In this document: positions 39,085 through 61,120 of the stretch, piece after piece
How the letters are laid out: each line of letters opens with the position of its first letter
How positions within the stretch are numbered: position 1 is the stretch's first letter
Assembly (NCBI GenBank): GCA_035513345.1
Contig: DATKCF010000042.1
Coordinates: 20,257 to 84,256, forward strand
DNA length: 64,000 nucleotides
Source of the DNA: Longimicrobiales bacterium
GTDB taxonomy: Bacteria > Gemmatimonadota > Gemmatimonadetes > Longimicrobiales > RSA9
Direction of reading: 5' to 3'
The notes under the pieces: generated by a model
What the model was told of the DNA's origin: nothing
The model's database searches: none
The model's input: only the letters and a program-made list of their open reading frames with translations
Translations under genes and position numbers: made by a program

Positions 39085-39095
39085 GTGAGGAACCG

Positions 39096-43814: not shown

Positions 43815-44070
43815 CTCGCATTCGCCCTACACCCGGTCCGGGATCGCCCGACTTCGCCGGAACCTCACAGGTCGCATATTCCGGTCGGGTTAGAGCCGCA
43901 TCGGGCCCCGTGGTCCCGTTCATGCACGCGAATGGCCGGGGAGGCTGTGCGGAAATTCCCGACCCGGCGTACGAGTAACCCCTATGACGCCGGGCCCCAA
44001 TCGTCCGTATGTTGCCTGAAGGGTCGCGTCCAGCATCCTCTGGGACGGCCGCCGGGCCGCGGAGGCGAGC

Positions 44071-44418
44071 ATGATGGATACGGTGCAGTCTGCGGAATGG
44101 GTGGCCCGTCTGCATGCGTTCACGAACAGGAACGCCGGCCGCCGAACGATCATGGAGATCGATATACCGGAGTACGGCGCCCAGGCTTCAGAGACGGACT
44201 ACCCGCTGTGGGGCGTGGCATTCGATCCACGCGACGGCAGGGTCCAGATCATGCTGGGCGAGCAGGGCAGTGTCGAGCAGCATCTGACACACTCGGTCGT
44301 GTCACCGGAGGGGATCGAAATCCTCACGGAGGGCGGCCGCGACAGGGCACTCCGGATCGCGCACGGAGGCGGCCAGACGCTGCTGACGTTCATCGAAACC
44401 GGAGCGGACGGCCCATAA
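44071..44418 (+). CDS. DUF5335-like small protein
   Basis: ATG follows GGAGGCGAGC. The 115-aa sequence (IMEIDIPEYGAQASETDYPLWGVAFDPRDGRVQIMLGE...THSVVSPEGIEIL) matches my recollection of the DUF5335 pattern. Confidence 0.6.
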   Translation: MMDTVQSAEWVARLHAFTNRNAGRRTIMEIDIPEYGAQASETDYPLWGVAFDPRDGRVQIMLGEQGSVEQHLTHSVVSPEGIEILTEGGRDRALRIAHGGGQTLLTFIETGADGP

Positions 44419-44474
44419 AGCCGCCCGTGACCGCCAGGCGACGACGCCGTATAAAGAGCGGCGGTGGGAGGTTG

Positions 44475-45584
44475 ATGGTGAACAATGCGCTGAACGGAGC
44501 CCGTCCCGGCGGGCAGGGCAGGATCCTGCCCGGAAGCGAGCCAACACAGCGCGTGCCCGTGCTCGACCGCATCCTTGGCGTACCGCTCTTCTTCAAGCTC
44601 TTCCTTGCCAACAGCGCGATCATCATCGGCGTCACGCTCGTGGGCGCGCTGCTGTCCGGCCGATTCACGGGTGCGCAGGCCGATGCCGTCGCGCCCTTCG
44701 TGCTACTGGCCCTTGCGGGCATCGTCCTGACTCTGGCCGTGAACGCCGTGATCGTCTGGATCGCACTGACTCCGGTCCGGACGCTGGAGTCCGCGGCGGC
44801 GCGCATCAGGGCGGGCGACTACAGCGCGCGTGCGGAGAGTTCACGACTGGCAGATCGCGATCTCGAGCGGCTGACGCGCACTTTCAACGACGTAGTCGAT
44901 GCCGTGGCAGACCAGACCCGCCGCCTGCGCGAGATGGCGGCACGGGCGCAATCGGCTACGGAGGAAGAGCGTCGCCGGCTGGCCCGCGAGCTGCACGACG
45001 GCATCGCGCAGAGCCTGGCCGCGCTCAATATCAGGGTGAAACTTGCCCGCAAGACCACCGACGATCAAGTTCGTGCGTCGGATCTGGACGAGATCAGTGG
45101 CGGAATATCCGATGCGATTCTGGAGATCCGCCGGATGGCACGCGGGCTGCGCCCGCCGGCGCTCGAGCTGCTGGGACTGGCGGCATCGATCGACTCGCAC
45201 GCCCGCCCGGCCGCCGAGGCGGCCGGGCTGGAGGCGACGATCGCGACCGAGAACGTGACGGGCCTGCTGTCATCCGAGGTGGAGCTGGCCGTCTACCGGA
45301 TTCTGCAGGAAAGCCTGTCCAACGTGATCCGGCATTCCGGCGCGTCACAGGTGAGAATCGAACTCGGGAAGACCGTTGACGGCATCGAGTTGCTGATCGA
45401 GGACGATGGCATGGGGTTCGACTCGGCCGGCATGATGTCCGGCGACCGGGGTCTCGGTATTTTCGGCATGACGGAACGGGCGTCCGTGATAGGCGGTGAA
45501 CTGGTGATCACGAGCCGACCGGACGACGGGACTCGCGTCCTGCTGACCGTACCCATTCTGGAGAGTGTCCCGCATGGCGGATGA
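44475..45584 (+). CDS. Sensor histidine kinase, HisKA_3 (NarX/LiaS-like)
   Basis: ATG at 44475 follows GGGAGG. Two TM segments, HAMP-like region, H-box LARELHDGIAQSL, HATPase motifs. The upstream part of the 550-aa ORF is rejected. Confidence 0.85.
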   Translation: MVNNALNGARPGGQGRILPGSEPTQRVPVLDRILGVPLFFKLFLANSAIIIGVTLVGALLSGRFTGAQADAVAPFVLLALAGIVLTLAVNAVIVWIALTPVRTLESAAARIRAGDYSARAESSRLADRDLERLTRTFNDVVDAVADQTRRLREMAARAQSATEEERRRLARELHDGIAQSLAALNIRVKLARKTTDDQVRASDLDEISGGISDAILEIRRMARGLRPPALELLGLAASIDSHARPAAEAAGLEATIATENVTGLLSSEVELAVYRILQESLSNVIRHSGASQVRIELGKTVDGIELLIEDDGMGFDSAGMMSGDRGLGIFGMTERASVIGGELVITSRPDDGTRVLLTVPILESVPHGG

Positions 45585-46230
45585 TCTGATCAGGATCGTA
45601 CTTGCCGATGACCACCAGGTGCTTCGTGCGGGATTGAAGGCGCTGCTCGAATCCGAGCCGGACATGAAGGTTGTCGGTGAAGCCTCGACGGGCGAGGAGG
45701 CGGTCGAGAAGGCGGAGTTCCTGAAACCGACCGTACTGGTGATGGACCTGTCGATGCCGGGTATGGGTGGCCTCGAGGCGACTCGGAAGATAACCGAGGC
45801 CGGCTACACGCGGGTCCTGGTGCTCACCATGCACGCCGAGGAGGAGTACCTGCTACCGGTGCTCGAAGCCGGCGGCAGCGGGTACGTGAAAAAGACGAGC
45901 GCCGATGTCGACCTGACCGCAGCGATCCGGACCGTGGCGCGCGACGAGGTGTTTCTGTATCCGAACGCGGCTCGGCTGCTGCTCCAGGGGTTCCGCGTGC
46001 GCGGCGAAAGGAACGAGGACGATCCGATCAACAAGTTGACCGAACGCGAACGCGACGTGATGACGATGACCGCCGAAGGGTTCAGCTCCTCGGAGATCGG
46101 CGGGAAGCTGTTCATCTCACCCAAGACCGTGGATACCTACCGTTCCCGCATCATGCAGAAGCTCGAGTTGACTCACCGTTCCGAGCTGGTCCGGTTCGCG
46201 CTTCAGGCGGGATTGCTCAAGGCGAAATAG
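45574..46230 (+). CDS. NarL/LuxR-family response regulator
   Basis: Receiver (IVLADDHQ, VLVMDLSMPGMGG) plus LuxR HTH (LTERERDVMTMTAEGFSSSEIGGKLFISPKTVDTYRSRIMQKL). It overlaps the kinase stop. An alternative GTG start lies at 45565. Confidence 0.92.
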   Translation: MADDLIRIVLADDHQVLRAGLKALLESEPDMKVVGEASTGEEAVEKAEFLKPTVLVMDLSMPGMGGLEATRKITEAGYTRVLVLTMHAEEEYLLPVLEAGGSGYVKKTSADVDLTAAIRTVARDEVFLYPNAARLLLQGFRVRGERNEDDPINKLTERERDVMTMTAEGFSSSEIGGKLFISPKTVDTYRSRIMQKLELTHRSELVRFALQAGLLKAK

Positions 46231-46321: not shown

Positions 46322-47704
46322 TTAGCCGCCGGTCCCTCCCAGCGGATCGCGGATGTGGCAGGTCCGGCACACGAACGCGTTGCGCCGACTGGCCTGCTCG
46401 GCGTCGAACATCGGGCCGTGCGGGCTGACGCGGAACGCTCCAAGCTGCGAGTGGCAGCGCAGGCAATCCGGCGGACGATGACAGCTGGCGCAGGACTCCA
46501 GGCCCTGCCTCGCGGCCTGACCGTGCCGCAGCAGCCACGCAGATTCGGCATCGTGGTAGACGGCGCCGGTCACACCGGTCGGCGCCCGTCCCGCCGTGCG
46601 ATGGCACGCCTGACAGAATACTTCGGCGTCGTGGCAATTGGCGCACTCGAGGCGGCGCGCGAACGCTTCCGTCGGATGCGACTCCAGGAACTGCGGAGGG
46701 TGGAACCCGGCATTCGCGGCGGCGTCGTGGCACGCCGCGCATTCCGTCCGGCCATGGCAGGCCGAACAACTCCGAGGCGACGTTTCGGCAAGCCAGGCAT
46801 GCGACGTCCCGAAAACAGGACTCGCGTGGGATTCGGGCGCCGCTCGCCGGACCGACACGCCCTGTGCCTGTACGTGCGATGCGGCGGGTAGCGCGGCGAC
46901 CTCGACAGGCGGTGAATCGATGTGGCACGACGCACACGTGTCGCGGGTGTGACAGGACGAACACGATGCAGGTGTGGCCGCCTCGGCGCCGTGTTGCCAC
47001 AGCCATTCGCCTGTCTGGTGACTGGGCGGCGTGAAGTACGACGCGGTCCAGCGCGGCAGCTCGAGCCCTGCGCCCGCGACGGGTAGCGCCTGCACGTCTG
47101 CGAGCGTGGCCGCATTCACGTGACAGGCCGTGCACCGCTCGCGCGTATGGCAGACACCGCATTCCGCGTTGCCTTCGTGATTCGCCAGGAAGTCGGGCGC
47201 GCCATGACCCGGCGGCAGCGGCAGAGCCAGGACGCGACCGAGATCGAATCGGCTTTCCGCGAGCGGGATGTGGCACGTCGAACATTGTGCACCGCTCAGG
47301 TGCTGCGGCGACTGGTGGCCATGGCAGGACAGACACTGTTCGACGACCGCGCGGTCAACGATCGTCATCCGGTCCCGACCTGCATCGACGTGACAGCCTT
47401 CACATGAGATGGCGTCGTTCGCCGCTACGCGGTCGTGCTGCGTGTGCGAGAAATCGAGTAGTGTCGCCTGCGGCTCGGGCGCCACCCACTCCACGCGGTC
47501 CACCACGGCTCCGTCGTGGCAGCCCGCGCACGTGGTTGGCGAGGGATACCAGTCGTCCGTCGGTCCATCCATCGTGTGGCACAATGTGCAGACCGGGAAC
47601 AGTCCGGCGTGCATGTCATGCGGGAACGGCGGCTGCTGTGCGGCGGCGCCTGTCGCGATGACCGCAAGCAGCACGAATGCGGACAACGTCAGTCGCGCGA
47701 TCAC
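46322..47704 (-). CDS. 16-heme c-type cytochrome, Sec-secreted
   Basis: GTG start overlapping the upstream stop (GTGA). Signal peptide MIARLTLSAFVLLAVIATGAAAQ. 16 CXXCH motifs counted by eye in 460 aa. Confidence 0.9.
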   Translation of the reverse strand: MIARLTLSAFVLLAVIATGAAAQQPPFPHDMHAGLFPVCTLCHTMDGPTDDWYPSPTTCAGCHDGAVVDRVEWVAPEPQATLLDFSHTQHDRVAANDAISCEGCHVDAGRDRMTIVDRAVVEQCLSCHGHQSPQHLSGAQCSTCHIPLAESRFDLGRVLALPLPPGHGAPDFLANHEGNAECGVCHTRERCTACHVNAATLADVQALPVAGAGLELPRWTASYFTPPSHQTGEWLWQHGAEAATPASCSSCHTRDTCASCHIDSPPVEVAALPAASHVQAQGVSVRRAAPESHASPVFGTSHAWLAETSPRSCSACHGRTECAACHDAAANAGFHPPQFLESHPTEAFARRLECANCHDAEVFCQACHRTAGRAPTGVTGAVYHDAESAWLLRHGQAARQGLESCASCHRPPDCLRCHSQLGAFRVSPHGPMFDAEQASRRNAFVCRTCHIRDPLGGTGG

Positions 47705-49161
47705 CGCGGACCTCCGCCCTGCCGCATACCGGGATCTCTGCCAAAGCCGAGCCGCAGCGATACGAACGCTCGCCGCTGGTTCCAGTCCGCGGTGTCTTCG
47801 CGGTCGGATGTGTGGCGGTACAGGCTCAGTCCCGCGTCGATCTCGACCTGCGTGGTGATGCGTACCGTTCCGTCAATGCCGGCGCCGAGCACCGAGCCCT
47901 CGCCCACGCGGAACTCCTCGATCTGTTCGAACACGGTTACGGAAGCGCGGATCGCCGCGGGACCGGGATCCCAGCGTACCGAGACGTCGCCTCCGCCGAA
48001 CGATGCGCCGAATCCGGTCTCACGCCGGAAGGACCCGTTGAAGGTCCAATCCTTGAGCGGCTGCCACCAGCCATTCAACGAGACGCGCCGGGTATCACGC
48101 TCGAGCGTCGGGCCGATGACGTTGACGCCGGTCTCGCCGTAGCGGCGCAGTGAGCCCGCCGCCGTCAGACCCAGCCGCGCGCCGTCAGTCCACGCCACCA
48201 GCAGCTCCCCCTCGTTGTAGCCGACGGGATCGAAGAAACCCCAGATCGTCCACAGCTCGAAGTAGGGAAGATACCGACGGCCGGTGGCTTCGACCGCGAA
48301 AGCGTTGCCCACGGGCACCCGAGCGCGAACGTGTGCCTTGCCAATGCGGCCGAACGCGAAATCGTAGTCGGCCGAAGCCACTACATGGATCGGCACGATC
48401 CTTGTAATCGATACCTCCGCTGATGCGCGCTCGGACGCGAGACCCGCGCGGTTCGCGAAGATCTCGCGCTGATAGCGTCCGGCCAGATCCATACCCGGCA
48501 CCGGCGAACCGGACACGGTGCCGCCAAGGAGAATTACGGACGGGTCCGGAACGAAGTCGTCAAACGCCTGAAGCGCTTCCGACCGCGGCTCGGACAGCCC
48601 GCGCGCAAGACTGCGGCCGGCATACAGCTCGGCGGAGAGCGATCGCCCGCGCCGATACAGCACGCTCGCACCGTCGAAGCTCGAGAAGCCGAGGCCGCCC
48701 ATCGCGTACTGCCGCCCCACTCGAAAGCGGACAGGCGACCGGTCCCACTCGACGTACGCGATCATTGCATCGAACGCGTCGTCCGCCCGCGGCCAGACCG
48801 CGTCGCCGGCGTGGGCGCGCGCCCGCAGGAACGCCGTTGCGCTCAGGCCGGTCACGCCGAACCCCCACGCCGTGAGACGCACGTCCTGCGACAGCGTCGA
48901 TGCAACCTGGCGTTCCGTCGGTCGGTAAACGATGCACGGCGTGGCCGGACGGCAGGCGATCGGCCGGCCGTCGAGGCGTACCCTGCCGTCCGCGTCGATC
49001 TCCAGCCGCGACGCATCGATCGTGTCGGCCTGGAGCGGACGGAACTCGATCAGGCGGCTTGTAGTCGAAGCGGTCCCGCGAACACCCTGCGCCGTCACGA
49101 ACGCGGGCAGGGCCGCGCCGAGACAGAGCATCGCCAGCGCCAGACCACAGGAGCGGGTCAT
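47701..49161 (-). CDS. Outer-membrane beta-barrel candidate (porin partner of the flanking cytochromes)
   Basis: Signal peptide MTRSCGLALAMLCLGAALPAFVTAQG. 486 aa with no CXXCH. Gly/Arg/aromatic-rich alternating strand-like patterns (VRLTAWGFGVTGLSATAFLRA, SAELYAGRS, AFVSLRLGFG). It is embedded between two multiheme cytochrome genes by ATGA/GTGA overlaps. Confidence 0.68.
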   Translation of the reverse strand: MTRSCGLALAMLCLGAALPAFVTAQGVRGTASTTSRLIEFRPLQADTIDASRLEIDADGRVRLDGRPIACRPATPCIVYRPTERQVASTLSQDVRLTAWGFGVTGLSATAFLRARAHAGDAVWPRADDAFDAMIAYVEWDRSPVRFRVGRQYAMGGLGFSSFDGASVLYRRGRSLSAELYAGRSLARGLSEPRSEALQAFDDFVPDPSVILLGGTVSGSPVPGMDLAGRYQREIFANRAGLASERASAEVSITRIVPIHVVASADYDFAFGRIGKAHVRARVPVGNAFAVEATGRRYLPYFELWTIWGFFDPVGYNEGELLVAWTDGARLGLTAAGSLRRYGETGVNVIGPTLERDTRRVSLNGWWQPLKDWTFNGSFRRETGFGASFGGGDVSVRWDPGPAAIRASVTVFEQIEEFRVGEGSVLGAGIDGTVRITTQVEIDAGLSLYRHTSDREDTADWNQRRAFVSLRLGFGRDPGMRQGGGPR

Positions 49162-51167
49162 TGGCGCCCCCGCGGAATCGTTCGCGCACCCACGATCCGC
49201 CGCATCGCTTCATCGGGCGGGATCAGGAGGTGACACGTCGAGCACTCGCCGGCCGGCCTGTGATCTGCCATCGTCGTGTGGCACTGAAGACAGAACCGGC
49301 GGTCTGCGTTCTCCATTATGCTCAGCGTGGCGGGCGCATGGCACGCGCCGCACAGCAGGTGGTCCGTGCGCTCGTGCAACGCCATCAGGCCGGAACCGTG
49401 ACACGCGTTGCACGTCGCCGGCGAGCGGGGTCCCGTGTGATGCGACTCGTGGCATTCGTTGCACGTGATCGTGTTCTGCGCAACGCCGCTCTGATGGCAG
49501 TCGGCGCACTCGACGGTCGCGTGCGCGTCGTGTGAGAAAGCGACCTCCCGCCTGCGCTCCAGACCGTCGCGCTGAACGTGGACCGTCAGATCCGCCTGGA
49601 CCCGCAACGCATCGACGTCCGATCGCGCGTGACACGCCGTGCAGTCGCCGGCGTTCTCGATGTGGTGGCAGCTCGCGCAATCGGCCTGCATGATCAGCGT
49701 TCTGCCATGCGCCGGATCGAATGTCGCGCCATCCGCCTCGAACAGTTCGGCCTGACCGTGGCAACGGCTGCATTGAAGCGAGCCCGCGAGCACGTGGGCC
49801 TTGTGCGAGAACGTGACGTCGTAGACCGGATTTTCGATGGTCTGCACGCCATAGTGGCACCGAACGCACGTGACTACCTCCGGGTCCGGTCCGAGCGCCG
49901 GCACGGTGGGCACGACTTCACCGACATGTCGGTACGACCGTGCGGCGGACGCGAGCGCCGCGCGCAACAGACCGTCCGCGGCGGGCAGATTGTGCACGCC
50001 ATCGCCATCCGAAACGTGCTGCCAGACCGACACCGCATCTCGTGCGATCGAGTCGGCTGTCGCGTTGCCACGGACCTGCGCGTTCGACGACGCCGTGCGC
50101 ACGTAGCTTCCGACCAGCGCGGTGTTTCGCCGGATGCCGCCGATCCATGGATCGAGCAGCGAACCGAAACGCGCGCCGTGACACGCGTCGCATTCCTGCC
50201 TGATCAGTTCGAATCGCTCAGCGGATCCGGCCGGCTGCGCCGTCGATGCGGCCACGTGACAGGTCGTGCACGCGACACGCTCGATGAACTTGAGCGCGGG
50301 ATCCACCGCCGGGTGGTGCGGATCGAGACCCGCATACAGCTCCTGAACGGCACGATGAGCCGTCGAATCGACCGGCGTATTCAGCGCAGGATCGCCAGCA
50401 TCGTGGCACGACTGGCACTCGAGCCGGAGAGAGGACGCCAGACGGATGACCTGGTGCTCGACCGGCGTGTGACAGCGCGTGCACGACATGACGATCGCCG
50501 TGTCCATGTGCATCCCGTGTACTGTCGCGGCGTCCATGGCCTCGCCGCCACGCAGCGGGATCGCTCCGCCCGGCACGCCATGACACGTTCTGCACGTCGC
50601 CGCCGGCGAGGCGCCAGAGCCCGTCGCCACATCGTAGTGACACAACAGGCAGGAGATGCCCCGGTCGAGAACCGCTGCATGATCGATCGGCGCACCGCTC
50701 GTCGCGAACGCCGTGTGCCCGGGCTGGACGTGGCAGGCCGTACACGCGGACGCCGCGATCGTCGCCTGCGCCTCGCTGCCAGCCGGCGGGAGGTCCGCGT
50801 GGCAGAGGAAACAGCCGCCCGTCGTGATCGTCAGATCGACGTCGCCACTGTCGTGCGTGTGGCAGGCTTCACAGCCGAGCCGATCCGTTCCGGCCAGGCC
50901 CGCGTGCTCGAAGTGTGTCATGCTGACATTGTGGATCTCCACCGCGTCAGCAAGATCAACAGCGGCATGACAGTTCGTGCACGAGCCAGGCGTGACCGCC
51001 GTAACGAATCCCTCCGTCCCGGGCGCGGTGTGGCACTCCGCGCACCCAAGGTCCGAATGCGGGCCCGCTTCCACCACAGTGCCGGAGTCGGAACCGCCAC
51101 AACCGGCCGCGAGCCACAGCACCGTACATGCTCCGGAGCAAAATCGCGTGGCCGCCGCCCACGTCAT
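49158..51167 (-). CDS. 21-heme c-type cytochrome lipoprotein
   Basis: Lipobox LWLAAGC. 21 CXXCH motifs counted by eye in 669 aa: 11 before and 10 after a ~110-aa heme-free segment. ATGA overlaps at both ends. Confidence 0.9.
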   Translation of the reverse strand: MTWAAATRFCSGACTVLWLAAGCGGSDSGTVVEAGPHSDLGCAECHTAPGTEGFVTAVTPGSCTNCHAAVDLADAVEIHNVSMTHFEHAGLAGTDRLGCEACHTHDSGDVDLTITTGGCFLCHADLPPAGSEAQATIAASACTACHVQPGHTAFATSGAPIDHAAVLDRGISCLLCHYDVATGSGASPAATCRTCHGVPGGAIPLRGGEAMDAATVHGMHMDTAIVMSCTRCHTPVEHQVIRLASSLRLECQSCHDAGDPALNTPVDSTAHRAVQELYAGLDPHHPAVDPALKFIERVACTTCHVAASTAQPAGSAERFELIRQECDACHGARFGSLLDPWIGGIRRNTALVGSYVRTASSNAQVRGNATADSIARDAVSVWQHVSDGDGVHNLPAADGLLRAALASAARSYRHVGEVVPTVPALGPDPEVVTCVRCHYGVQTIENPVYDVTFSHKAHVLAGSLQCSRCHGQAELFEADGATFDPAHGRTLIMQADCASCHHIENAGDCTACHARSDVDALRVQADLTVHVQRDGLERRREVAFSHDAHATVECADCHQSGVAQNTITCNECHESHHTGPRSPATCNACHGSGLMALHERTDHLLCGACHAPATLSIMENADRRFCLQCHTTMADHRPAGECSTCHLLIPPDEAMRRIVGARTIPRGRQ

Positions 51168-52027
51168 TTGAAGGTGGCCCAGATGACCAGTCCGGCTAGC
51201 GTGAGGCCGATGAGAATCGCGCCCGCACCGAATATGGCGGCGGCGATGTACAGCCCTCGTGGCGGCGGCGGCGCCACTCGCCGTTCGAGAAGCCTGTCCC
51301 TCTCCAGCCGCTCCAGTTCGAGTGGGTGCTCGTCCTCCATGTATTCGGTAGTAGCACGACCCGTGAAGATGACGAGGTCGAGCGGGAACTTCTCCGGCCT
51401 GAGCTGCCCGTTGAAGAAGTGGATCGTGAAAATGAATACGAGCGCGAGAAGCGCCTCATCGCCGTGAACGATCGTCGCGACATTGAAGGCCCAGCCCGGC
51501 AGCCAGCGCGCGAAGAACTCGGGGAACCAAAGCAGCAGCCCCGAGCCGCCGATTACGGCTATGCCCCAGAAGACCGCCCAGTAGTCGAATTTCTCGAGGT
51601 AACTGAATCGGTCGAACTGCGGCCGCGGTCCAAGACCAACGAACCACTTCAGCATCTGAATCAGGTCCTGCAGATCCTTCGGCTGTGGAACCATCGAATC
51701 CGGGCCCCAGAGCATCCGTTTCCGATCGGGCCCCAGCACGAGCTTCCTCAGAATCGAACCGACGTGCGTCACGAAATATGCGAATGTGATGACCGCGCAG
51801 ATACGATGGATGACGCCCGCCACTTCGACGCCACCATGAAGCCTGATGATGAAATGCGCCCATGGCTCGTGTGAGAAGTGCAACGGAATGCCCGTTATGA
51901 CCAGGCCAAAGAATGATACGATCACCATCAGGTGGAGCACGCGTTCGAGCGGCGAAAAACGCCACAGGTACGGGCCTTTCCCACGATCCGACGAGGCCAC
52001 GGCGCGAACCGGTGTGTGCGTGCTCAT
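51164..52027 (-). CDS. Membrane b-type cytochrome subunit (FdnI/HydC/PhsC-like, Ni_hydr_CYTB-type)
   Basis: 287 aa with 4-5 TM helices. Conserved His residues lie in helices ([12 protein letters not shown]..., [40 protein letters not shown]). It is translationally coupled to the 11-heme cytochrome. Confidence 0.78.
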
Positions 52028-53508
52028 TCGCGCACCGTCCCGTTGCCATCCCGGTCAGCGCGATCGCCCGGCGTATCGTCGACCGGCCCGTTCGTATCAG
52101 GCTGAGCCTCGCCATCGGCGCCGGCCCCGGTCCGCGGAATTGCTCCGGTCCCGGCCACGGCTCCAGCATCAGCCCGGGCCCCGGCCGCAGCTCCCGCCGT
52201 ACCCCGGGCCGTAGCAGCCCCCGCCTTGCTCCCGGCCGCGAATCCCCCGCCGCCACCGCGTACTCCTTCGATGGTCCCCCGGATCAGCCAGAGGAGCGTG
52301 TGTGCGCCGAAGAAGAGGAACACGCCCACGAGCAGCGACGTCATCGCGAGCCACGTCCAGTAGAGCTGCGGGTAGCGTTCGCGATCCCTGTGGTCACCGT
52401 GCGGCAGGTATGCGACGAAGTTGGCGCTCGCCTCGCCGTGGCACGCCGCGCAGGTCTCGACGCGGTTCACCATGTTCACGGAGGATGACGGGTCGTCCGC
52501 GGGCAGGTTCAGATGCGCCGTGTGGCAGTCGCTGCAACGTGCGGCGATCGCCGAGCCGAGACGCGTTACCTTGCCGTGGTACGTGTGGAAGTATGTTTCG
52601 TACACGCGCTCGTGGCATGCGCCGCACTCCTCGATGACGCCGGCTTTCCACGGCTCGTCCGGTGGCGCGACGCCGTGCGCCGAATGGCACGTGTTGCAGA
52701 CCGGCGCCTCGTGCCCGTCCTCATCAGTCTCGCCAAGCGCGAAGGCCTGGCCGTGAGCGCTGCTGAGGAACTGCTCGAGAACACCCTCATGGCAGGCGCC
52801 GCACGTGCGCGGGACACTGTCACGCGCGATCGATGACAGCATGGAATCGGACGGCAGAACGCGGTGTGGCCGATGACAGTCGCTGCAAGTCGCCGACACG
52901 ATCAGGCCGGCCTGCGAGATCGCCAACCCGTGTACGGTCTTGTGATAGAGCGACACCGCCGATCGCGCAACCGAGTCCGCCGGATCGGCGAAGTAGGCAG
53001 CCAGAATGTCCGGGTCGCTGTGGCATTCACCGCACATGGCCGCTTCGTTCAGCGGATGCGTCGGCGATGCGCGGTCCAGCGGGCCCAGCACGCGGTGGAC
53101 ACCGTGGCACCGAATGCAGCCGGGCGACTCGCCGAGTGGCGCCGCATCGCCCAGGGAATGCACGGACGCCAGCCAGTCCTGCTGCTCCGGTTCGTGGCAC
53201 GACGCACAGGTCGCGGTGCTGGCGCTCGGCTGGTGCGGGTACGCGTCGTCATAGCCGCTGTGGCAACTGGCGCACACGAGCGTGTCATGGCTGGTGCCGT
53301 GCAGGATCGAATCGGGGACGAACATGCGCTCGTCGCCCGCGCGGTCCGTGGCCCGGCCGGCCAGGAACTCGCGATCGCCGTGGCAACGGCCGCACTGGAC
53401 AGCACCCTGAGCGGTCACCGCACTGGACGGTGCGAACATCTGCGGTGCTGCCGCGCCCAGCAGGATGAGCAGGAACGCTGTCGGGTGAAGCCGCCGCGAT
53501 CCGCTCAC
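52024..53508 (-). CDS. 11-heme c-type cytochrome with C-terminal TM anchor and Gly/Ala-rich tail
   Basis: GTG start (GTGA overlap). Signal peptide. 11 CXXCH motifs counted by eye, then the TM helix LYWTWLAMTSLLVGVFLFFGAHTLLWLI and a roughly 80-aa low-complexity tail. Confidence 0.9.
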   Translation of the reverse strand: MSGSRRLHPTAFLLILLGAAAPQMFAPSSAVTAQGAVQCGRCHGDREFLAGRATDRAGDERMFVPDSILHGTSHDTLVCASCHSGYDDAYPHQPSASTATCASCHEPEQQDWLASVHSLGDAAPLGESPGCIRCHGVHRVLGPLDRASPTHPLNEAAMCGECHSDPDILAAYFADPADSVARSAVSLYHKTVHGLAISQAGLIVSATCSDCHRPHRVLPSDSMLSSIARDSVPRTCGACHEGVLEQFLSSAHGQAFALGETDEDGHEAPVCNTCHSAHGVAPPDEPWKAGVIEECGACHERVYETYFHTYHGKVTRLGSAIAARCSDCHTAHLNLPADDPSSSVNMVNRVETCAACHGEASANFVAYLPHGDHRDRERYPQLYWTWLAMTSLLVGVFLFFGAHTLLWLIRGTIEGVRGGGGGFAAGSKAGAATARGTAGAAAGARADAGAVAGTGAIPRTGAGADGEAQPDTNGPVDDTPGDRADRDGNGTVRE

Positions 53509-54926
53509 CGCAGTGCCGGCGCGAAGATGGGCACGCGCGACACGCGGCTACCGGCGACGAGGCCGTAGTCCGATTCGATCTGGCGGATGCTCGCGATCAG
53601 AAGCGACTCGATCAGGAACGGATTGTGGATCGCCGAGCCGGGATAAGCGGCGAGCTGCATGTTGAAGCGCGAACCCTCTGCGGTCGTGTAGCGCGCGTCA
53701 GTATTGTCGAACTCATCGGCCGGAACCTGAGCGAGCAGTGCGCCCAGCACGACAACGAGGTCCGCGGCCCGTTGTTCGGCGAGAACCATGGCCCCGCGCG
53801 CGTCCGCCTCGGACGCATGACAGGCCGCATCCACACAGCTCCGGAACGTGCGCGCCGTGATCTCGCAGTCGCCCGTCGTCGGAATACCGCTTGCGTCAAG
53901 GCACGGCACCGCCTTGAACAGGTGGCCGGTCGCCCGGAACTGAACATCACCAGTCGCCGGATCCGTTACGGTGAACGCGTTCACGTGGCAACCCGCGCAC
54001 AGCCGGGGATTCCGCTCCGTTCCGTGCGTGGCAATGATCTCACCGCCAGTGAACTCGAACGACGGCGGGAACCAGCCGGCGTAGCCGAGCAGTACCGGCC
54101 CCTCGGGCGAGTGCGGGCCGCGGAACGTCGTCGGGTCCGGCTGGCCACGCTTGTGATGGCACTTCATGCACAGGTTCTCTTCCTCGCTCGGTATGTCGAT
54201 GGGGAACCTGAGCTGCGCAGGGTTCGTGCGATCGTGCGGATCGTGGCAGACACCGCACGTAATGGGAAGGTGCGCGCCGCCCTCGAGTACGTCGATCTTC
54301 TCGAGGTACTCCGCCCGCACGCCCCACGACTGCAGCGCATTCTCACCCGTGTGGCAGGCCTGGCACTCGGGCCGGCCAGCGGCACTCGTCTGTACGCTTC
54401 CATGGCCCGACTGCACCCACTCGTCGACGAACGGATGATGCGCTCCGCTGTGGCACTGACCGCAACCGAGGGTCAGTTCCGTGCCGACAGCGAGCGGAGC
54501 CAGGGGTTGTGTCGCATCCGGATTCTCGATGTGGAGCAGCCCCGCGCCATGGCAGCTTTCGCACTGGACATCATGATATCGGCTGCTTCGTGTCGTCTCG
54601 AAGCCGCCCGGCTCACTCGACGCATTGCCGAGCGAACCGACCGTGTGACAACCTTCACAGAACGCCTGCGCGTGGCCACTTTCCTGGAGTGTGGCCCATG
54701 CATCGGCGTGGGCCGTTTCCGCCCAGTCCGACTGCTGGCCGACATGACAATTGCCGCAGACCGTGCGCTTCGCGGCTTCGTCCGAGTATCCGATGTAACT
54801 CGCGGCACCCGCAGGAAGGGAGGGGAAGCGCACGTCCTCGTAGACGACACGTTCGTCAATACAGCCCGCGGCGGCGAGCAGCGCGACCACCACGGACCAC
54901 GTGGGGCGGAACGACTTCGAAGGCAA
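53505..54926 (-). CDS. Octaheme c-type cytochrome lipoprotein (paralog 2)
   Basis: 8 CXXCH plus one conserved CX4CH. Lipobox LLAAAGC. TTG at 54926 gives an N-terminus colinear with paralog 1. The ORF-track start at 55040 is the alternative. Confidence 0.85.
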   Translation of the reverse strand: MPSKSFRPTWSVVVALLAAAGCIDERVVYEDVRFPSLPAGAASYIGYSDEAAKRTVCGNCHVGQQSDWAETAHADAWATLQESGHAQAFCEGCHTVGSLGNASSEPGGFETTRSSRYHDVQCESCHGAGLLHIENPDATQPLAPLAVGTELTLGCGQCHSGAHHPFVDEWVQSGHGSVQTSAAGRPECQACHTGENALQSWGVRAEYLEKIDVLEGGAHLPITCGVCHDPHDRTNPAQLRFPIDIPSEEENLCMKCHHKRGQPDPTTFRGPHSPEGPVLLGYAGWFPPSFEFTGGEIIATHGTERNPRLCAGCHVNAFTVTDPATGDVQFRATGHLFKAVPCLDASGIPTTGDCEITARTFRSCVDAACHASEADARGAMVLAEQRAADLVVVLGALLAQVPADEFDNTDARYTTAEGSRFNMQLAAYPGSAIHNPFLIESLLIASIRQIESDYGLVAGSRVSRVPIFAPALR

Positions 54927-55100
54927 CTGTTGCCTCTGGTTGCGGGTGCCCGGGAACTGACCGGGCGGCGCCCGGCACACAGACAGCGCGCAAAATCCTC
55001 GGCCGGCAGCCCGGCGCCGGTCACCCGGATGAAATGCCACGCGCCACCCGAACCGTCAAGGCGGTGCTCAACGTCGACATTGCATGCCGGTGGATGGCAG

Positions 55101-55152
55101 CACAAACAAGCGACCCCGGAGAGCGCAGAGCCGCGCCGCCCTCCGGGGTCGC
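55101..55152 (-). terminator. Intrinsic-terminator-like hairpin between the two octaheme paralogs
   Basis: Read on the minus strand: GCGACCCCGGAG-19 nt-CTCCGGGGTCGC (perfect 12-bp stem) followed by CTTGTTTGTG. It starts 21 nt after the stop of paralog 1. Confidence 0.5.
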
Positions 55153-55172
55153 CGAATGCAATCGGTAGCGCC

Positions 55173-56600
55173 TCAGTTCGTCGTCGAGTTCTTCTGAAGC
55201 AGGTTATCCAGCACCACACCCGGCGGTGAAGTGATTCCGTAATCGGTCGTGACCTGCTTGATGCTCGACGTGATCAGCGCCTCGATCAGGAACGGGTTGT
55301 GGACCACCGCGCCAGGCGACAGAGCCAGTTGATGATTGAACTTCGCGCCCTCGCCAGTCGTGTACCGGCCATCAGATGTGCTGAACTCGGACGCCGGAAT
55401 CTGGTCGATCATTGCCTGCAGCGTTCCCGCCAGCAGATCGATGCGCGCCTCCGATGTCACCATGGCCGACCGGGCCGACACCGCCGTGTGGCAGCCGATC
55501 GCATCACAGCTCTGGAACGTACGAGCCGTGATCGCGCAGTCCCCGGACGTCGGAATGCCCTGCGCGTCGACGCATGGGATGGCCGCGAACAGATGACCGG
55601 TCGAATTGAATACGAACGCGCCCGTCTCCGAGTCCGTCACCTGGAAGCTGTTCACGTGACAGCCCGCGCACAGCGTCGGGTTCCGATCGCTGCCGTGCGT
55701 GGCAATGAGTGTGCCCGGCGGCAGTTCGAACGACGGCGGGAACCAGCCCGCGTTGCCGAGCAACGTCGGTCCTTCCGGCGCGTGCGGTCCGCGTGACGAA
55801 CCCGGGTCCGGATTCGCCCGCTTGTTGTGACAGCGCATGCACAGGTTCGTATCCTCGTCCGGTACATTGACCGGGAACCGGAGCTGCGCCGAATTGTCAC
55901 GGGCGTGCGGATCGTGGCATACGACGCACGTCGTTCCCAGGTGGACGTCCGGATCGCCCTTCTCGATGTAATTCGTGTTCACACCCCACGTGGCCAGCGC
56001 GACAGTGCCGACGTGACAGACCGCGCAATCGGCCCGCTCCGCCGCGTGCTCCTGCACGTTGCTGTGACCGGACGCCGCCCACTCTTCGACGAACGGATGG
56101 TGTGTGCCCGAATGGCATTCTCCACAACCGGATTCCGCGTTCAAACCAACGCCGAACGGCGCGAGCGGCAGATTCGTCGATTGCGGATTCTCGACGTGCG
56201 TCTGCCCCGCACCATGGCAGCTCTCGCACTGCACGTCGTGGTAGCGCGGATCGCGGGTTGCGTCCCATGCCACCTGCGCCGATGCCGCATTGCCGCGGTC
56301 GCTCACCGTGTGGCAACCTTCACAATGTGCTGCCGCGTGCCCGCTGCCTTCGAGCGTCGCCCACGCATCTGCGTGCTGCGTGTCCTCCCACTCCGATTGC
56401 GCGCCGATGTGGCAGTTGCCACAGACCGTCAGCCTGGTTTCCTGATTGCTGTATCCGAGGAAGTTCGCGGCTCCGGGAGGTGGGTCCTCGAATAGCTCGC
56501 GGTCCCGGAACACGATCCTCTCCTCAACGCACCCGGCACCCGCCAGTCCGAGCAAGAGAAGCACACCGAAACGATGGAACACTCTTGTGCCGAACGACAT
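55173..56600 (-). CDS. Octaheme c-type cytochrome lipoprotein (paralog 1)
   Basis: ATG at 56600 follows AAAAAGGGGGAAG. Lipobox LGLAGAGC. 8 CXXCH plus a conserved CX4CH (CDAIGCH). Heme-free C-terminal helical domain. Confidence 0.88.
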   Translation of the reverse strand: MSFGTRVFHRFGVLLLLGLAGAGCVEERIVFRDRELFEDPPPGAANFLGYSNQETRLTVCGNCHIGAQSEWEDTQHADAWATLEGSGHAAAHCEGCHTVSDRGNAASAQVAWDATRDPRYHDVQCESCHGAGQTHVENPQSTNLPLAPFGVGLNAESGCGECHSGTHHPFVEEWAASGHSNVQEHAAERADCAVCHVGTVALATWGVNTNYIEKGDPDVHLGTTCVVCHDPHARDNSAQLRFPVNVPDEDTNLCMRCHNKRANPDPGSSRGPHAPEGPTLLGNAGWFPPSFELPPGTLIATHGSDRNPTLCAGCHVNSFQVTDSETGAFVFNSTGHLFAAIPCVDAQGIPTSGDCAITARTFQSCDAIGCHTAVSARSAMVTSEARIDLLAGTLQAMIDQIPASEFSTSDGRYTTGEGAKFNHQLALSPGAVVHNPFLIEALITSSIKQVTTDYGITSPPGVVLDNLLQKNSTTN

Positions 56601-56738
56601 TGCTTCCCCCTTTTTCCGACGCTCCAGCACCTGCTCCCGCGTCCTCATCGAACCCGCCGTCACTCGCTGAGTCCGGCTCTGCCGGCCCGGTCACTGCGAA
56701 GTACGCCGGTTGTCCGACCTCCCGCATCCCCGGTTCAC

Positions 56739-56750: not shown

Positions 56751-57015
56751 GCTTCGGGATAACGGTATCGCCTGGCCTCGAAGATAGGTAATCTCCCGGG
56801 GGCGCAATGCCGGAGATTGTCCGAACCCCTTGTCGGGGTTATCCCTACGGGCAAGTATGGAGTTGGCGCCGTCAGTCACGGATGCAACCGTTCTGGAGCG
56901 CGGGAGATCGTGCCGACCGACACCGACTCAAACGCCGATCGGGTCTGGCGTACTGTAGCCACTCGTGCGAACGAACCGCATCATGTCCGATCGGCACGGC
57001 AGTCAGGAGTGATTG

Positions 57016-60938: not shown

Positions 60939-61120
60939 GTCAGTGCTCCGTACCGTATGAGACACGTTCATCATAGTCGGCTGCGACGGGGATGGCAAAG
61001 CCCACGCCAGCGCGCGCTGGCGACCCGGTTCAACGGAACGGGTTTCTCCGAACGATCCGCGGGGAAAAGCCGCTTGCGCTCGATCGCGTTCCGGTGCGGA
61101 ACGCACCGGAAAACCGTCGT

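What the first reader, a model, noticed from the sequence alone, without database searches (positions are those of the whole stretch)
46322..51167. Porin-cytochrome-like trio with unusually high heme load: 21-heme lipoprotein, 486-aa barrel, 16-heme cytochrome
The barrel gene is sandwiched between two very heme-dense cytochrome genes by 4-nt overlaps, which is the hallmark arrangement of porin-cytochrome modules. MtrC/MtrA carry 10 hemes each and Geobacter OmaB/OmcB carry 8 and 12, whereas these partners carry 21 (with a lipobox, so membrane-tethered) and 16. At 486 aa the barrel is much shorter than MtrB and closer to the Geobacter OmbB size class. Its mature N-terminus carries a Cys pair (IACRPATPCIV, CX5C), loosely reminiscent of the N-terminal CXXC of MtrB. 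The 21-heme protein has two heme-rich halves (11 + 10) split by a ~110-aa heme-free segment containing DGDGVHNLP. The two octaheme paralogs carry a similar heme-free domain with G(A/S)(V/A)(V/I)HNPFL. This suggests the 21-heme protein arose by fusing an octaheme-like unit with further heme repeats.
Basis: partly seen in the sequence, partly recalled or inferred. Interest (0 to 1): 0.72.

Follow-up and report, generated by a model that had tools for sequence, protein, structure and literature searches.

The report
Gemmatimonadota outer-membrane cytochrome electron conduit
Three overlapping genes encode an uncharacterised outer-membrane barrel flanked by 21-heme and 16-heme cytochromes, part of a seven-gene operon that probably carries electrons from the inner membrane to the cell surface in a common soil phylum where no such pathway has been described.

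Summary

The 486-aa protein models as a 22-strand beta-barrel (pLDDT 83). It has no Pfam, NCBIfam or PDB sequence relative. I found it only in Gemmatimonadota.

In 79 related loci the barrel is followed by a 16-heme secreted cytochrome (70/74), usually with a 4-nt overlap. An OcwA-like lipoprotein cytochrome is nearly always nearby. The gene upstream of the barrel varies: absent, 8-9 hemes, or 17-19 hemes with a NapC/NirT-type inner-membrane anchor.

The window's 21-heme protein is a rarer fusion. Its first part is a 12-heme lipoprotein that elsewhere stands alone after a cytochrome-b/11-heme pair. Its second part is the 8-heme barrel-adjacent module plus one heme. The joint is near residue 445, not at the heme-free segment. 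The 12-heme part resembles the octahemes only remotely.

Best reading: a new type of porin-cytochrome conduit within a seven-gene, about 66-heme trans-envelope wire. The 16-heme protein is the likely barrel insert, the OcwA-like lipoproteins the likely surface reductases, and the 21-heme protein a periplasmic bridge.

The heme load exceeds Mtr and Pcc but not PCC3. Topology and direction of electron flow are inferred.

The parts
46322..47704 (-). 16-heme c-type cytochrome (460 aa) with a cleavable Sec signal (AAA/QQ) and no lipobox. It is the invariant downstream partner of the barrel and the likely barrel-inserted wire, playing an MtrA-like role.
   Evidence: 16 CXXCH motifs. All 16 motifs and 15 further His are invariant in 40 homologs. 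None of 76 relatives has a lipobox. The gene downstream of the barrel has 16 CXXCH in 70/74 loci. Only c3/Hmc-type module matches in the PDB.
47701..49161 (-). Outer-membrane beta-barrel (486 aa, signal peptide cleaved before invariant Q25), predicted to have 22 strands. Member of a family annotated only as hypothetical.
   Evidence: AF2 pLDDT 83.3, pTM 0.74, 22 long strands. Foldseek returns only outer-membrane barrels, E about 1e-9. No Pfam or NCBIfam hit and no PDB sequence hit. 391 homologs, all unnamed or labelled Gemmatimonadota. 521 representative clusters.
48934..48954 (-). Codons for C70-C76 (CRPATPC), the conserved CX5C pair in the 44-residue first loop (residues 41-84) of the barrel.
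   Evidence: C70 and C76 are at least 90% conserved in 37 sequences. The loop lies between strand 26-40 and strand 85-99 in the model.
49833..51167 (-). N-terminal module of the 21-heme protein (residues 1 to about 445): lipoprotein signal (LAAGC), 12 hemes and a helical heme-free domain. Homologous to a standalone 12-heme lipoprotein of other Gemmatimonadota.
   Evidence: BLASTP of residues 36-458 against L027_12h gives E 3e-44 at 30% identity. Similar matches to L002, L044 and L046. The standalone forms carry a lipobox and follow the 11-heme/cytochrome b pair.
49869..50177 (-). Heme-free segment (residues 331-433) between hemes 11 and 12, containing the invariant VHN motif.
   Evidence: A gap of 99-108 residues at the same position in 17 fused and 9 standalone relatives. 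H392/N393 are invariant. A 29-column hhalign match to the C-terminal helices of the OcwA-like lipoproteins, E 1.5e-4. Controls against the 16-heme family and the barrel are negative.
49158..49832 (-). C-terminal module of the 21-heme protein (residues about 446-669): 9 hemes. Homologous to the 8-heme protein or module that precedes the barrel in most relatives.
   Evidence: BLASTP of residues 450-667 against the standalone 8-heme proteins L075, L055 and L012 gives E 2e-25 to 2e-22 at 34-35% identity. It also matches the C-terminal half of the 17-heme proteins. One extra motif (C606) is inserted relative to the 8-heme spacing.
51164..52027 (-). Di-heme cytochrome b (287 aa, 5 predicted TM helices), a likely quinol/quinone-interacting subunit.
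   Evidence: PF01292 at 37.5 bits (cut-off 30.1). A weak hit to formate dehydrogenase gamma. H32, H74, H188 and H203 are invariant in 12 sequences.
52024..53508 (-). 11-heme cytochrome (494 aa) with a C-terminal TM anchor that holds an invariant His. Together with the cytochrome b it forms a CbcBA-like inner-membrane module.
   Evidence: 11 CXXCH. TM helix at 391-409 with H403 invariant in 12/12. The architecture matches the description of CbcBA (bioRxiv 10.1101/2021.04.15.440034).
53505..54926 (-). OcwA-like lipoprotein cytochrome 2 (8 CXXCH + 1 CX4CH). The likely start is TTG at 54926; the longest ORF begins at 55040.
   Evidence: Family profile against OcwA 6QVM gives E 2.9e-19. Lipobox AAAGC.
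55173..56600 (-). OcwA-like lipoprotein cytochrome 1 (8 CXXCH + 1 CX4CH). The likely start is ATG at 56600, preceded by GGGGGA; the longest ORF begins at 56663.
   Evidence: 58% identical to paralog 2. Profile hits to OcwA, octaheme nitrite reductase and HAO.

Best explanation
The three genes form the outer-membrane end of a seven-gene operon (46322-56663, minus strand). The operon encodes a complete electron path across the cell envelope, of a type so far seen only in Gemmatimonadota.

Shown:
- A 22-strand barrel of a new family is translationally coupled to an invariant 16-heme Sec-secreted cytochrome.
- Two OcwA-like nine-heme lipoproteins, an 11-heme cytochrome with a His-bearing TM anchor, and a di-heme cytochrome b are encoded in the same operon.
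- The 21-heme lipoprotein is a fusion of a 12-heme lipoprotein and the 8-heme barrel-adjacent module. The 12-heme unit is elsewhere a separate gene following the cytochrome b pair.

Inferred mechanism:
1. The cytochrome b/11-heme pair exchanges electrons with the quinone pool at the inner membrane, as CbcBA does.
2. The 21-heme fusion carries them across the periplasm. Its C-terminal module docks on the periplasmic end of the 16-heme cytochrome.
3. The 16-heme cytochrome sits inside the barrel and crosses the outer membrane, as MtrA does in MtrB.
4. The OcwA-like lipoproteins on the cell surface pass the electrons to extracellular acceptors such as Fe(III)/Mn(IV) minerals or humics.

The direction of flow could equally be inward.
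For: Barrel:
- AF2 model with pLDDT 83 and 22 long strands.
- Foldseek matches only outer-membrane barrels, with the best TM-scores to 22- and 24-strand barrels (strand numbers from general knowledge).

Conserved coupling:
- 16 CXXCH downstream in 70/74 loci; an overlapping start is available in 72/74.
- All 16 motifs plus 15 distal His are invariant.
- Signal peptide without lipobox in 76/76.

Modularity of the upstream partner:
- 17-19 hemes in 40 loci, 8-9 hemes in 18, and an octaheme directly upstream in 15.
- The 17-heme forms begin with a TM helix and YRTYDY.QHDN.FC.SCH, and match PF03264 NapC/NirT (28.5 bits, cut-off 24.1).
- The 8-heme forms have a plain signal peptide.

Fusion:
- Residues 36-458 match standalone 12-heme lipoproteins (E 3e-44). 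Residues 450-667 match 8-heme proteins (E 2e-25).
- 16 relatives carry all 21 motifs, and a 17th has 20.
- A second metagenomic contig (L084) has the same gene order: octaheme, 11-heme, cytochrome b, 21-heme, barrel, 16-heme.

Inner-membrane module:
- PF01292, four invariant TM His, and an invariant His in the TM anchor of the 11-heme protein.
- This is the CbcBA pattern.

Surface candidates:
- The octaheme profile hits the Thermincola surface reductase OcwA at E 2.9e-19 over 360 residues. The invariant CX4CH aligns with OcwA's ninth heme motif.
- All carry a lipobox followed by V-D-E.
Against: - No complex model or experiment exists. Which cytochrome enters the barrel, and on which side each lipoprotein sits, is inferred from gene neighbourhood and from analogy with MtrCAB.
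- The AF2 model of the 16-heme protein is poor (pLDDT 59) and has no structural match.
- Coordinates of the barrel model were not available. Lumen size and possible plugging by the 44-residue first loop or the conserved loops could not be examined.
- The barrel, the 16-heme protein and the 21-heme protein are not sequence members of the Mtr families.
- The N-terminal module of the 21-heme protein resembles the putative surface lipoproteins remotely and hits an MtrC/MtrF domain model (43 bits). An extracellular location is therefore not excluded.
- All carriers are uncultured MAGs, and Gemmatimonadota are not known metal respirers.
Confidence: 0.6

Rival explanations
1. Same conduit, but with the topology the first reader implied. 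The 21-heme lipoprotein is the extracellular partner (MtrC/OmcB analogue) tethered to the outer face. The 16-heme protein is the periplasmic or in-barrel partner.
For: Lipobox with Cys23 conserved in at least 90% of the family. Pfam MtrC/MtrF domain II/IV hit at 43 bits, above the 30-bit cut-off. The gene order lipoprotein-barrel-periplasmic cytochrome resembles Mtr and Pcc. The N-terminal module is remotely similar to the OcwA-like lipoproteins.
Against: In most relatives its C-terminal module is fused to an N-terminal NapC/NirT-type membrane anchor, which must sit in the inner membrane, or it is a soluble secreted protein. In standalone form its N-terminal module is encoded with the cytochrome b/11-heme inner-membrane pair. 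The upstream partner is missing in 15 of 79 loci, whereas an octaheme lipoprotein is nearly always present.
Confidence: 0.2
2. The module works inward. It takes electrons from extracellular Fe(II), Mn(II), reduced humics or a partner cell, and delivers them to the quinone pool or to periplasmic reductases.
For: Porin-cytochrome systems of the Mto/Pio and PCC3 type are linked to Fe(II) oxidisers (PMC5566968). Nothing in the sequence fixes the direction. Some related cassettes sit beside [NiFe] hydrogenase operons, suggesting flexible lithotrophic electron flow.
Against: The nearest characterised relatives of two components act in outward transfer: OcwA as a terminal reductase and CbcBA as a quinol oxidase of a metal reducer. 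No carbon-fixation or Fe-oxidation marker was seen in the window.
Confidence: 0.25
3. This is not an electron conduit. The OcwA/ONR/HAO-like proteins are periplasmic enzymes for soluble N- or S-oxyanions. The barrel is a substrate porin or an export channel, and the large cytochromes are periplasmic electron stores.
For: The octaheme profile also hits octaheme nitrite reductase (E 1.8e-8) and hydroxylamine oxidoreductase (E 3e-4).
Against: Translational coupling of the barrel to an invariant 16-heme wire in 72/74 loci. Wire-like density of about 27-31 residues per heme. Membrane-anchored 17-heme chains are hard to explain for a soluble-substrate reductase. The barrel shows conserved loops rather than the variable loops typical of diffusion porins.
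Confidence: 0.1

Closest known systems
MtrCAB of Shewanella (and MtoAB/PioAB)
   Same: A barrel gene adjacent to a Sec-secreted multiheme cytochrome and a lipoprotein multiheme cytochrome. The proposed logic is a heme wire sheathed by a barrel. There is a conserved Cys pair near the barrel N-terminus.
   Different: The barrel has no match to the MtrB/PioB models and about 22 rather than 26 strands. The partners have 16 and 21 hemes rather than 10 + 10. They score far below the cut-offs of the DmsE/MtrA and OmcA/MtrC family models, or not at all. The Cys pair is CX5C in a loop after strand 1, not an N-terminal CXXC.
Geobacter-type Pcc clusters (OmbB-OmaB-OmcB; Shi et al. 2014, PMC4245776)
   Same: Barrel size class: 18-22 predicted strands there, 22 here. 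Both have a periplasmic and a lipoprotein cytochrome, variable heme numbers, and atypical CXnCH motifs in outer cytochromes.
   Different: Periplasmic partners there have 5-14 hemes; here the number is fixed at 16. Sequence relationship to OmbB/OmaB/OmcB could not be tested. The operon here also includes OcwA-like lipoproteins and inner-membrane modules.
PCC3 clusters of Fe(II) oxidisers (He et al. 2017, PMC5566968)
   Same: Porin plus cytochromes with very many hemes (medians 34 and 21) plus an inner-membrane protein of about 300 aa with 5 TM helices. They are proposed to span the whole envelope.
   Different: The inner-membrane protein there has two WX3HX13H motifs on TM3 and TM5. Here it is a PF01292 cytochrome b with His on TM1, TM2 and an HX14H on TM4. 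The cytochromes here are not low-complexity repeats. The phylum is different.
OcwA of Thermincola potens (PDB 6QVM) and the NrfA/ONR/HAO superfamily
   Same: The two 'octaheme' lipoproteins match OcwA over 360 residues (E 2.9e-19). This includes a ninth heme site and the C-terminal helices with the G-x-HN motif.
   Different: Here they are lipoproteins of a diderm bacterium encoded next to an outer-membrane barrel. The ninth site is CX4CH.
CbcBA and CbcL of Geobacter sulfurreducens
   Same: A di-heme cytochrome b plus a multiheme c-type cytochrome anchored by a C-terminal TM helix carrying a conserved His.
   Different: 11 hemes instead of 7. Sequence homology to CbcA/CbcB was not tested. Here the pair is encoded in one operon with the outer-membrane module.

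Membership tests
MtrB/PioB outer-membrane barrel family | Match to the family models (Pfam MtrB_PioB, NCBIfam MtrB/PioB) or to MtrB of PDB 6R2Q | tested here: not met
   No Pfam or NCBIfam family at E <= 0.01. The profile of 37 homologs finds no PDB chain at E <= 10. MtrB is not among the top 50 Foldseek hits.
MtrB/PioB outer-membrane barrel family | 26-strand barrel (28 in older predictions) | tested here: not met
   The DSSP string of the AF2 model shows 22 long strands.
MtrA/DmsE decaheme family (barrel-inserted partner) | Match to TIGR03508 above its cut-off; 10 hemes | tested here: not met
   The 16-heme protein has no hit. The 21-heme protein scores 31 bits against a cut-off of 192. MtrA (6R2Q_A) is not hit by the 16-heme profile.
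OmcA/MtrC decaheme lipoprotein family | Match to TIGR03507 above its cut-off | tested here: not met
   15 bits against a cut-off of 209. Only the domain-level model PF22113 is passed (43 bits, cut-off 30).
Porin-cytochrome module (generic architecture) | Outer-membrane barrel gene adjacent to at least one secreted multiheme cytochrome and one lipoprotein multiheme cytochrome, conserved across genomes | tested here: met
   The arrangement is conserved in 79 loci from Gemmatimonadota genomes.
Geobacter-type Pcc (OmbB/OmaB/OmcB) | Porin-like protein with 18-22 trans-membrane strands | tested here: met
   22 strands, against the range given in PMC4245776.
Geobacter-type Pcc (OmbB/OmaB/OmcB) | BLAST similarity to OmbB, OmaB or OmcB, the criterion used by Shi et al. 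2014 | not testable with these tools
PCC3 (He et al. 2017) | Conserved inner-membrane protein with two WX3HX13H motifs on TM3 and TM5 | tested here: not met
   The operon's membrane protein is a PF01292 cytochrome b with invariant H32, H74, H188 and H203 (HX14H on one helix).
CbcBA-like inner-membrane bc-type quinol oxidoreductase | Di-heme cytochrome b plus a multiheme cytochrome with a C-terminal TM anchor bearing a conserved His | tested here: met
   PF01292 at 37.5 bits against a cut-off of 30.1. TM helix 391-409 with H403 in 12/12. Definition taken. Direct sequence homology to CbcA/CbcB was not tested.
OcwA / octaheme nitrite reductase / HAO superfamily (for the two upstream lipoproteins) | Profile similarity over the heme core and C-terminal helices | tested here: met
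   6QVM E 2.9e-19, 6I5B E 2.7e-14, 8RV0 E 1.8e-8, HAO E 3e-4.
NapC/NirT family (for the 17-heme partners in related loci, not in the window) | N-terminal TM helix followed by the first heme motifs; PF03264 | tested here: met
   L004 17-heme protein scores 28.5 bits against a cut-off of 24.1. The L028 9-heme protein scores 21.7 bits, below the cut-off. The conserved TM + HDN.FC.SCH is visible.
Bacterial lipoprotein (21-heme protein) | Signal peptide ending in a lipobox with an invariant Cys | tested here: met
   LAAGC at residues 19-23. Cys23 is at least 90% conserved, consensus GCGD. Lipidation itself is not testable here.

The most novel reading that the evidence does not exclude
The operon builds a continuous protein-bound heme wire of about 66 c-type hemes plus 2 b-type hemes, running from the quinone pool to the cell surface with no diffusible periplasmic carrier.

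The constant 8-heme module acts as a universal plug for the barrel/16-heme socket. Evolution has swapped the inner-membrane 'input' fused to this plug. In most lineages the input is a NapC/NirT-type anchor. In this lineage it is a CbcBA-associated 12-heme lipoprotein.

That would make it a modular, hard-wired trans-envelope conduit in a major soil phylum not known for extracellular respiration.
Probability: 0.3. Interest if true: 0.78.

Novelty: new variant of a known kind. Interest (0 to 1): 0.6.

Why it matters
Gemmatimonadota are abundant in soils and sediments, yet they have no described route for extracellular electron transfer.

A phylum-wide cassette would give a concrete genetic marker for metal, humic or electrode respiration (or electron uptake) in this group. 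The evidence for its spread is 102 species-level genomes, 391 or more barrel homologs and 521 representative clusters. All of these barrels are currently annotated as hypothetical proteins.

The cassette also offers a natural experiment in conduit design. One barrel/16-heme core is combined with interchangeable inner-membrane inputs, including a 21-heme fusion long enough, if extended, to cross much of the periplasm. That bears on an open question: how electrons cross the periplasm in organisms that lack small shuttle cytochromes.

Finally, it links the OcwA-type surface reductases of Gram-positive bacteria to a diderm outer-membrane system.

Tried and rejected
- BLASTP of the 21-heme protein against both octahemes gave only short CXXCH-anchored matches (E 0.095 and 0.003). 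The fusion idea in its literal form is therefore not shown by pairwise comparison.
- hhalign of the whole families gave 96.5%. I discounted much of it because the 21-heme and 16-heme families score 99.1%, and the 16-heme and octaheme families 96.1%. Only the CXXCH-free segment is a fair test, and it gives a 29-column match.
- The AF2 model of the 16-heme protein from 40 homologs has pLDDT 59, and Foldseek returned nothing. It is not usable.
- PDB sequence searches with single proteins and with profiles returned only c3/c7/Hmc/nine-heme modules for both large cytochromes. Nothing was returned for the barrel.
- Promoter and terminator scans were uninformative, apart from one hairpin between the two octaheme genes.
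- Five full-text literature searches for a described Gemmatimonadota porin-cytochrome system found none.
- I considered that the barrel might be a TonB-dependent receptor because it has 22 strands. I rejected this because no plug or TonB-dependent-receptor domain was hit.
- I considered an assembly or frameshift artefact for the 21-heme fusion. I rejected it because 16 other protein clusters carry all 21 motifs (a 17th has 20), and an independent contig shares the gene order.

Full report
**1. What is in the sequence**

The region lies in a run of seven minus-strand genes. All genes from 53508 downward are joined by 4-nt overlaps.

| Gene | Coordinates | Size | Features |
|---|---|---|---|
| Lipoprotein cytochrome 1 | 55173-56663 (likely start 56600) | 496 aa ORF | 8 CXXCH + 1 CX4CH |
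| Lipoprotein cytochrome 2 | 53505-55040 (likely start 54926) | 511 aa ORF | 8 CXXCH + 1 CX4CH |
| 11-heme cytochrome | 52024-53508 | 494 aa | C-terminal TM helix |
| Cytochrome b | 51164-52027 | 287 aa | PF01292 |
| 21-heme lipoprotein | 49158-51167 | 669 aa | lipobox, 21 CXXCH |
| Barrel | 47701-49161 | 486 aa | no heme motif |
| 16-heme cytochrome | 46322-47704 | 460 aa | Sec signal, 16 CXXCH |

- No other ORF in the 64-kb window is CXXCH-dense.
- A HisKA_3 kinase and a GerE-type response regulator lie convergently downstream. A PAS-PAS-GAF kinase lies divergently upstream.

**2. The barrel**

- The 486-aa protein has no Pfam or NCBIfam match. A profile of 37 homologs finds no PDB chain.
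- It has at least 391 homologs. All are unnamed, 'hypothetical', or labelled Gemmatimonadota/Longimicrobiales.
- An exhaustive profile search of 1.84 billion cluster representatives finds 521 clusters at E <= 1e-3. The distant ones that carry a name are again Gemmatimonadota.
- The AF2 model from the 37-sequence alignment has pLDDT 83.3 and pTM 0.74. It is all-beta, with 22 long strands (26-40, then 85-99 through 462-474).
- Read from a periplasmic N-terminus, the periplasmic turns are short (2-6 residues). The longest loops are on the outer side: residues 41-84, 185-208, 298-314 and 342-355.
- Foldseek returns only outer-membrane barrels (E about 1e-9). TM-scores are low and best for the FimD usher (0.49) and the siderophore receptor PirA (0.44). 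By general knowledge these are 24- and 22-strand barrels, which fits an intermediate size. MtrB is not in the top 50.
- Barrel geometry (Murzin's formula, shear number assumed to be n+2; my calculation, an inference) gives a backbone diameter near 40 Å for 22 strands and about 47 Å for 26.
- TonB-dependent receptors with 22 strands hold a plug of about 150 residues, so a heme wire is not excluded on size. I could not inspect the coordinates, so plugging by the first loop remains open.
- C70 and C76 sit in that first loop and are each at least 90% conserved.
- The loop at 298-314 (PYFELWTIWGFF.P) is almost invariant, yet it is modelled with pLDDT below 50. This is what one expects of a partner-binding element. 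This is inference.

**3. Conserved neighbourhood**

A scan of one genome per GTDB species found 102 species with the barrel. The 80 loci returned are all Gemmatimonadota MAGs, apart from two labelled only 'uncultured bacterium'. I called ORFs in all loci and classified them by BLASTP and CXXCH count.

- Downstream of the barrel there is a cytochrome with exactly 16 CXXCH in 70 of 74 loci. A start codon overlapping the barrel stop by 4 nt exists in 72 of 74.
- An octaheme-type lipoprotein gene lies upstream in 71 loci.
- The gene immediately upstream of the barrel varies:
  - 17-19 hemes in 40 loci;
  - 8-9 hemes in 18 loci;
  - the octaheme gene itself in 15 loci.
- None of these 79 loci has a 21-heme gene.

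The invariant core is therefore barrel + 16-heme protein + octaheme-type lipoprotein. The window's 21-heme partner is a minority variant.

**4. What the 21-heme protein is**

- BLASTP splits it cleanly.
  - Residues 36-458 match standalone 12-13-heme proteins of L027, L002, L044 and L046 (E 3e-44 to 6e-29, 28-30% identity).
  - Residues 450-667 match the standalone 8-heme proteins that precede the barrel in L075, L055, L012 and L006 (E 2e-25 to 7e-18, 32-35% identity). They also match the C-terminal half of the 17-heme proteins.
- The standalone 12-heme proteins are lipoproteins. They are encoded directly after homologs of the 11-heme protein and the cytochrome b.
- They contain the same heme-free gap of 99-108 residues between their 11th and 12th hemes. 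The gap is therefore an internal domain, not the seam.
- The seam lies around residues 441-449. After it, the sequence F-S-H-x-x-H ... CxxCH corresponds to the mature N-terminus of the 8-heme proteins.
- The C-terminal module has one extra heme (C606) relative to the 8-heme spacing. This gives 12 + 9 = 21.
- The fusion is not an artefact.
  - 16 other protein clusters carry all 21 motifs, and a 17th has 20.
  - All 21 motifs and the lipobox Cys are conserved.
  - Contig L084 has the same order: octaheme, 11-heme, cytochrome b, 21-heme, barrel, 16-heme.
- The common 17-heme partners have a different N-terminal half. It is a hydrophobic anchor followed by YRTYDY.QHDN.FC.SCH, which passes the Pfam NapC/NirT model (28.5 bits against 24.1).
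- The short 8-heme forms have an ordinary signal peptide.
- The constant part is thus the 8-heme module. It is found alone, on a NapC/NirT-type inner-membrane anchor, or, as here, on a 12-heme lipoprotein tied to a cytochrome b module.

**5. Is the N-terminal unit 'octaheme-like'?**

- Pairwise BLASTP gives nothing significant for the N-terminal half.
- Profile-profile comparison of the two families gives 96.5% probability and E 7.5e-10 over 371 columns. The alignment runs from the lipobox to the end of the helical domain. The nine heme sites of the octaheme-type protein fall in order on nine of the twelve, and the CX4CH site falls on heme 11.
- Controls show that multiheme families cross-hit strongly:
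  - 21-heme against 16-heme family: 99.1%;
  - 16-heme against octaheme family: 96.1% over 73 columns.
- Tested on its own, the CXXCH-free segment matches the C-terminal helices of the octaheme-type proteins over 29 columns (E 1.5e-4, probability 51%). It does not match the 16-heme family (E 0.98) or the barrel (E 0.37).
- I therefore regard a remote common origin as plausible but not established.

**6. The other operon members**

- *Octaheme-type lipoproteins.* The family profile hits OcwA, the cell-surface terminal reductase of Thermincola (6QVM), at E 2.9e-19 over 360 residues.
  - It also hits 6I5B (2.7e-14), octaheme nitrite reductase (1.8e-8), HAO, and weakly MtrA.
  - The invariant C386-x4-C391-H392 aligns with OcwA's CSVCH, so these are probably nine-heme proteins.
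  - All relatives have a lipobox Cys followed by V-D-E.
  - Two acidic residues just after the lipidated Cys are the core of the surface-export signal of Bacteroidota lipoproteins (PMC5080379). This is a lead, not a test.
- *Cytochrome b.* It has five predicted TM helices and invariant H32, H74, H188 and H203.
- *11-heme protein.* It has a C-terminal TM helix with invariant H403. This is the architecture described for Geobacter CbcBA.
- *16-heme protein.* It has 27-29 residues per heme, with all 16 motifs and 15 further His invariant. It matches only c3/Hmc-type modules in the PDB.

**7. Mechanism**

The parts list, the conserved coupling and the fusion are shown. The following path is inferred:

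1. Quinol is oxidised at the cytochrome b/11-heme pair.
2. Electrons pass to the 12-heme part and then the 9-heme part of the 21-heme lipoprotein in the periplasm.
3. They pass to the 16-heme protein held in the barrel.
4. They reach the OcwA-like lipoproteins outside, and from there an insoluble or large acceptor.

- If heme chains are as extended as in MtrA (about 100 Å for ten hemes, as cited in PMC5566968), 16 and 21 hemes could span roughly 130-160 Å and 170-210 Å. Together that is more than enough to cross the outer membrane and the periplasm. This is an extrapolation.
- The argument for a periplasmic 21-heme protein is that its C-terminal module is elsewhere attached to an inner-membrane anchor.
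- The main rival places it outside, as an MtrC analogue.
- The direction of flow is open.

**8. Comparison and novelty**

- The architecture is that of a porin-cytochrome module.
- It fails the sequence tests for the Mtr families.
- It matches the Pcc size class (18-22 strands) but exceeds Pcc's 5-14 periplasmic hemes.
- It differs from PCC3 in its membrane protein.
- PCC3 also shows that 21 hemes is not a record.
- Five full-text searches found no description of this Gemmatimonadota system.
- I class it as a new variant of a known kind.

Noticed in passing
window 53505-56663 (-): The two 'octaheme' paralogs are probably nine-heme proteins. An invariant CX4CH (C386..C391-H392 in paralog 1) aligns with the ninth heme motif of OcwA (PDB 6QVM). 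All relatives have lipobox-Cys followed by V-D-E, reminiscent of the acidic surface-export signal of Bacteroidota lipoproteins.
   Followed up: partly
window 55110-55134 (-): A terminator-like hairpin (9-bp stem, 6 G-C pairs, T-rich tail) lies in the gap between the two OcwA-like genes. It could set different transcript levels for the first gene and the rest of the operon.
   Followed up: no
window 49158-51167 (-): The public gene call for the 21-heme protein is a 587-aa N-terminally truncated version that lacks the signal peptide, the lipobox and the first two hemes. Homologs of 645-687 aa support the 669-aa ORF that overlaps the cytochrome b stop.
   Followed up: yes
window 48220-48270 (-), barrel residues 298-314: The most conserved stretch of the barrel (PYFELWTIWGFF.P, nine invariant residues) lies in a predicted loop modelled with pLDDT below 50. 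It is a candidate partner-binding or lumen-folding element.
   Followed up: partly
L001/L058 755-5099 and the contig carrying P0138: In some relatives the cassette sits next to a [NiFe] hydrogenase operon (small and large subunits, cytochrome b, HycI/HypA). This parallels the hydrogenase-linked extEFG cluster of Geobacter (PMC6148476).
   Followed up: no
L023 (both strands), L042: Some genomes carry two cassettes, or duplicated octaheme/8-9-heme/9-heme sets, within 20 kb. L023 has two barrel paralogs on opposite strands, one matching the window's barrel at 45% and the other at 33% identity.
   Followed up: no
window 38607-42806 (+): A very long ORF (up to 1399 aa) contains poly-Gly runs and a long (GQQ)n/(GQ)n low-complexity tract near its C-terminal third, plus coiled-coil-like E/R/A-rich sequence. 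Its function is unknown.
   Followed up: no
window 43932-46230 (+) and 57013-59142 (+): A NarX/NarL-type two-component pair (HisKA_3 kinase, GerE response regulator) ends 91 nt from the 3' end of the operon. A PAS-PAS-GAF histidine kinase is divergent from its 5' end. Both are possible redox or oxygen-responsive regulators of the conduit.
   Followed up: partly
window 59853-61316 (-): A 487-aa protein matches baeRF_family10, a bacterial release-factor-like family (33 bits). It is unrelated to the finding.
   Followed up: no
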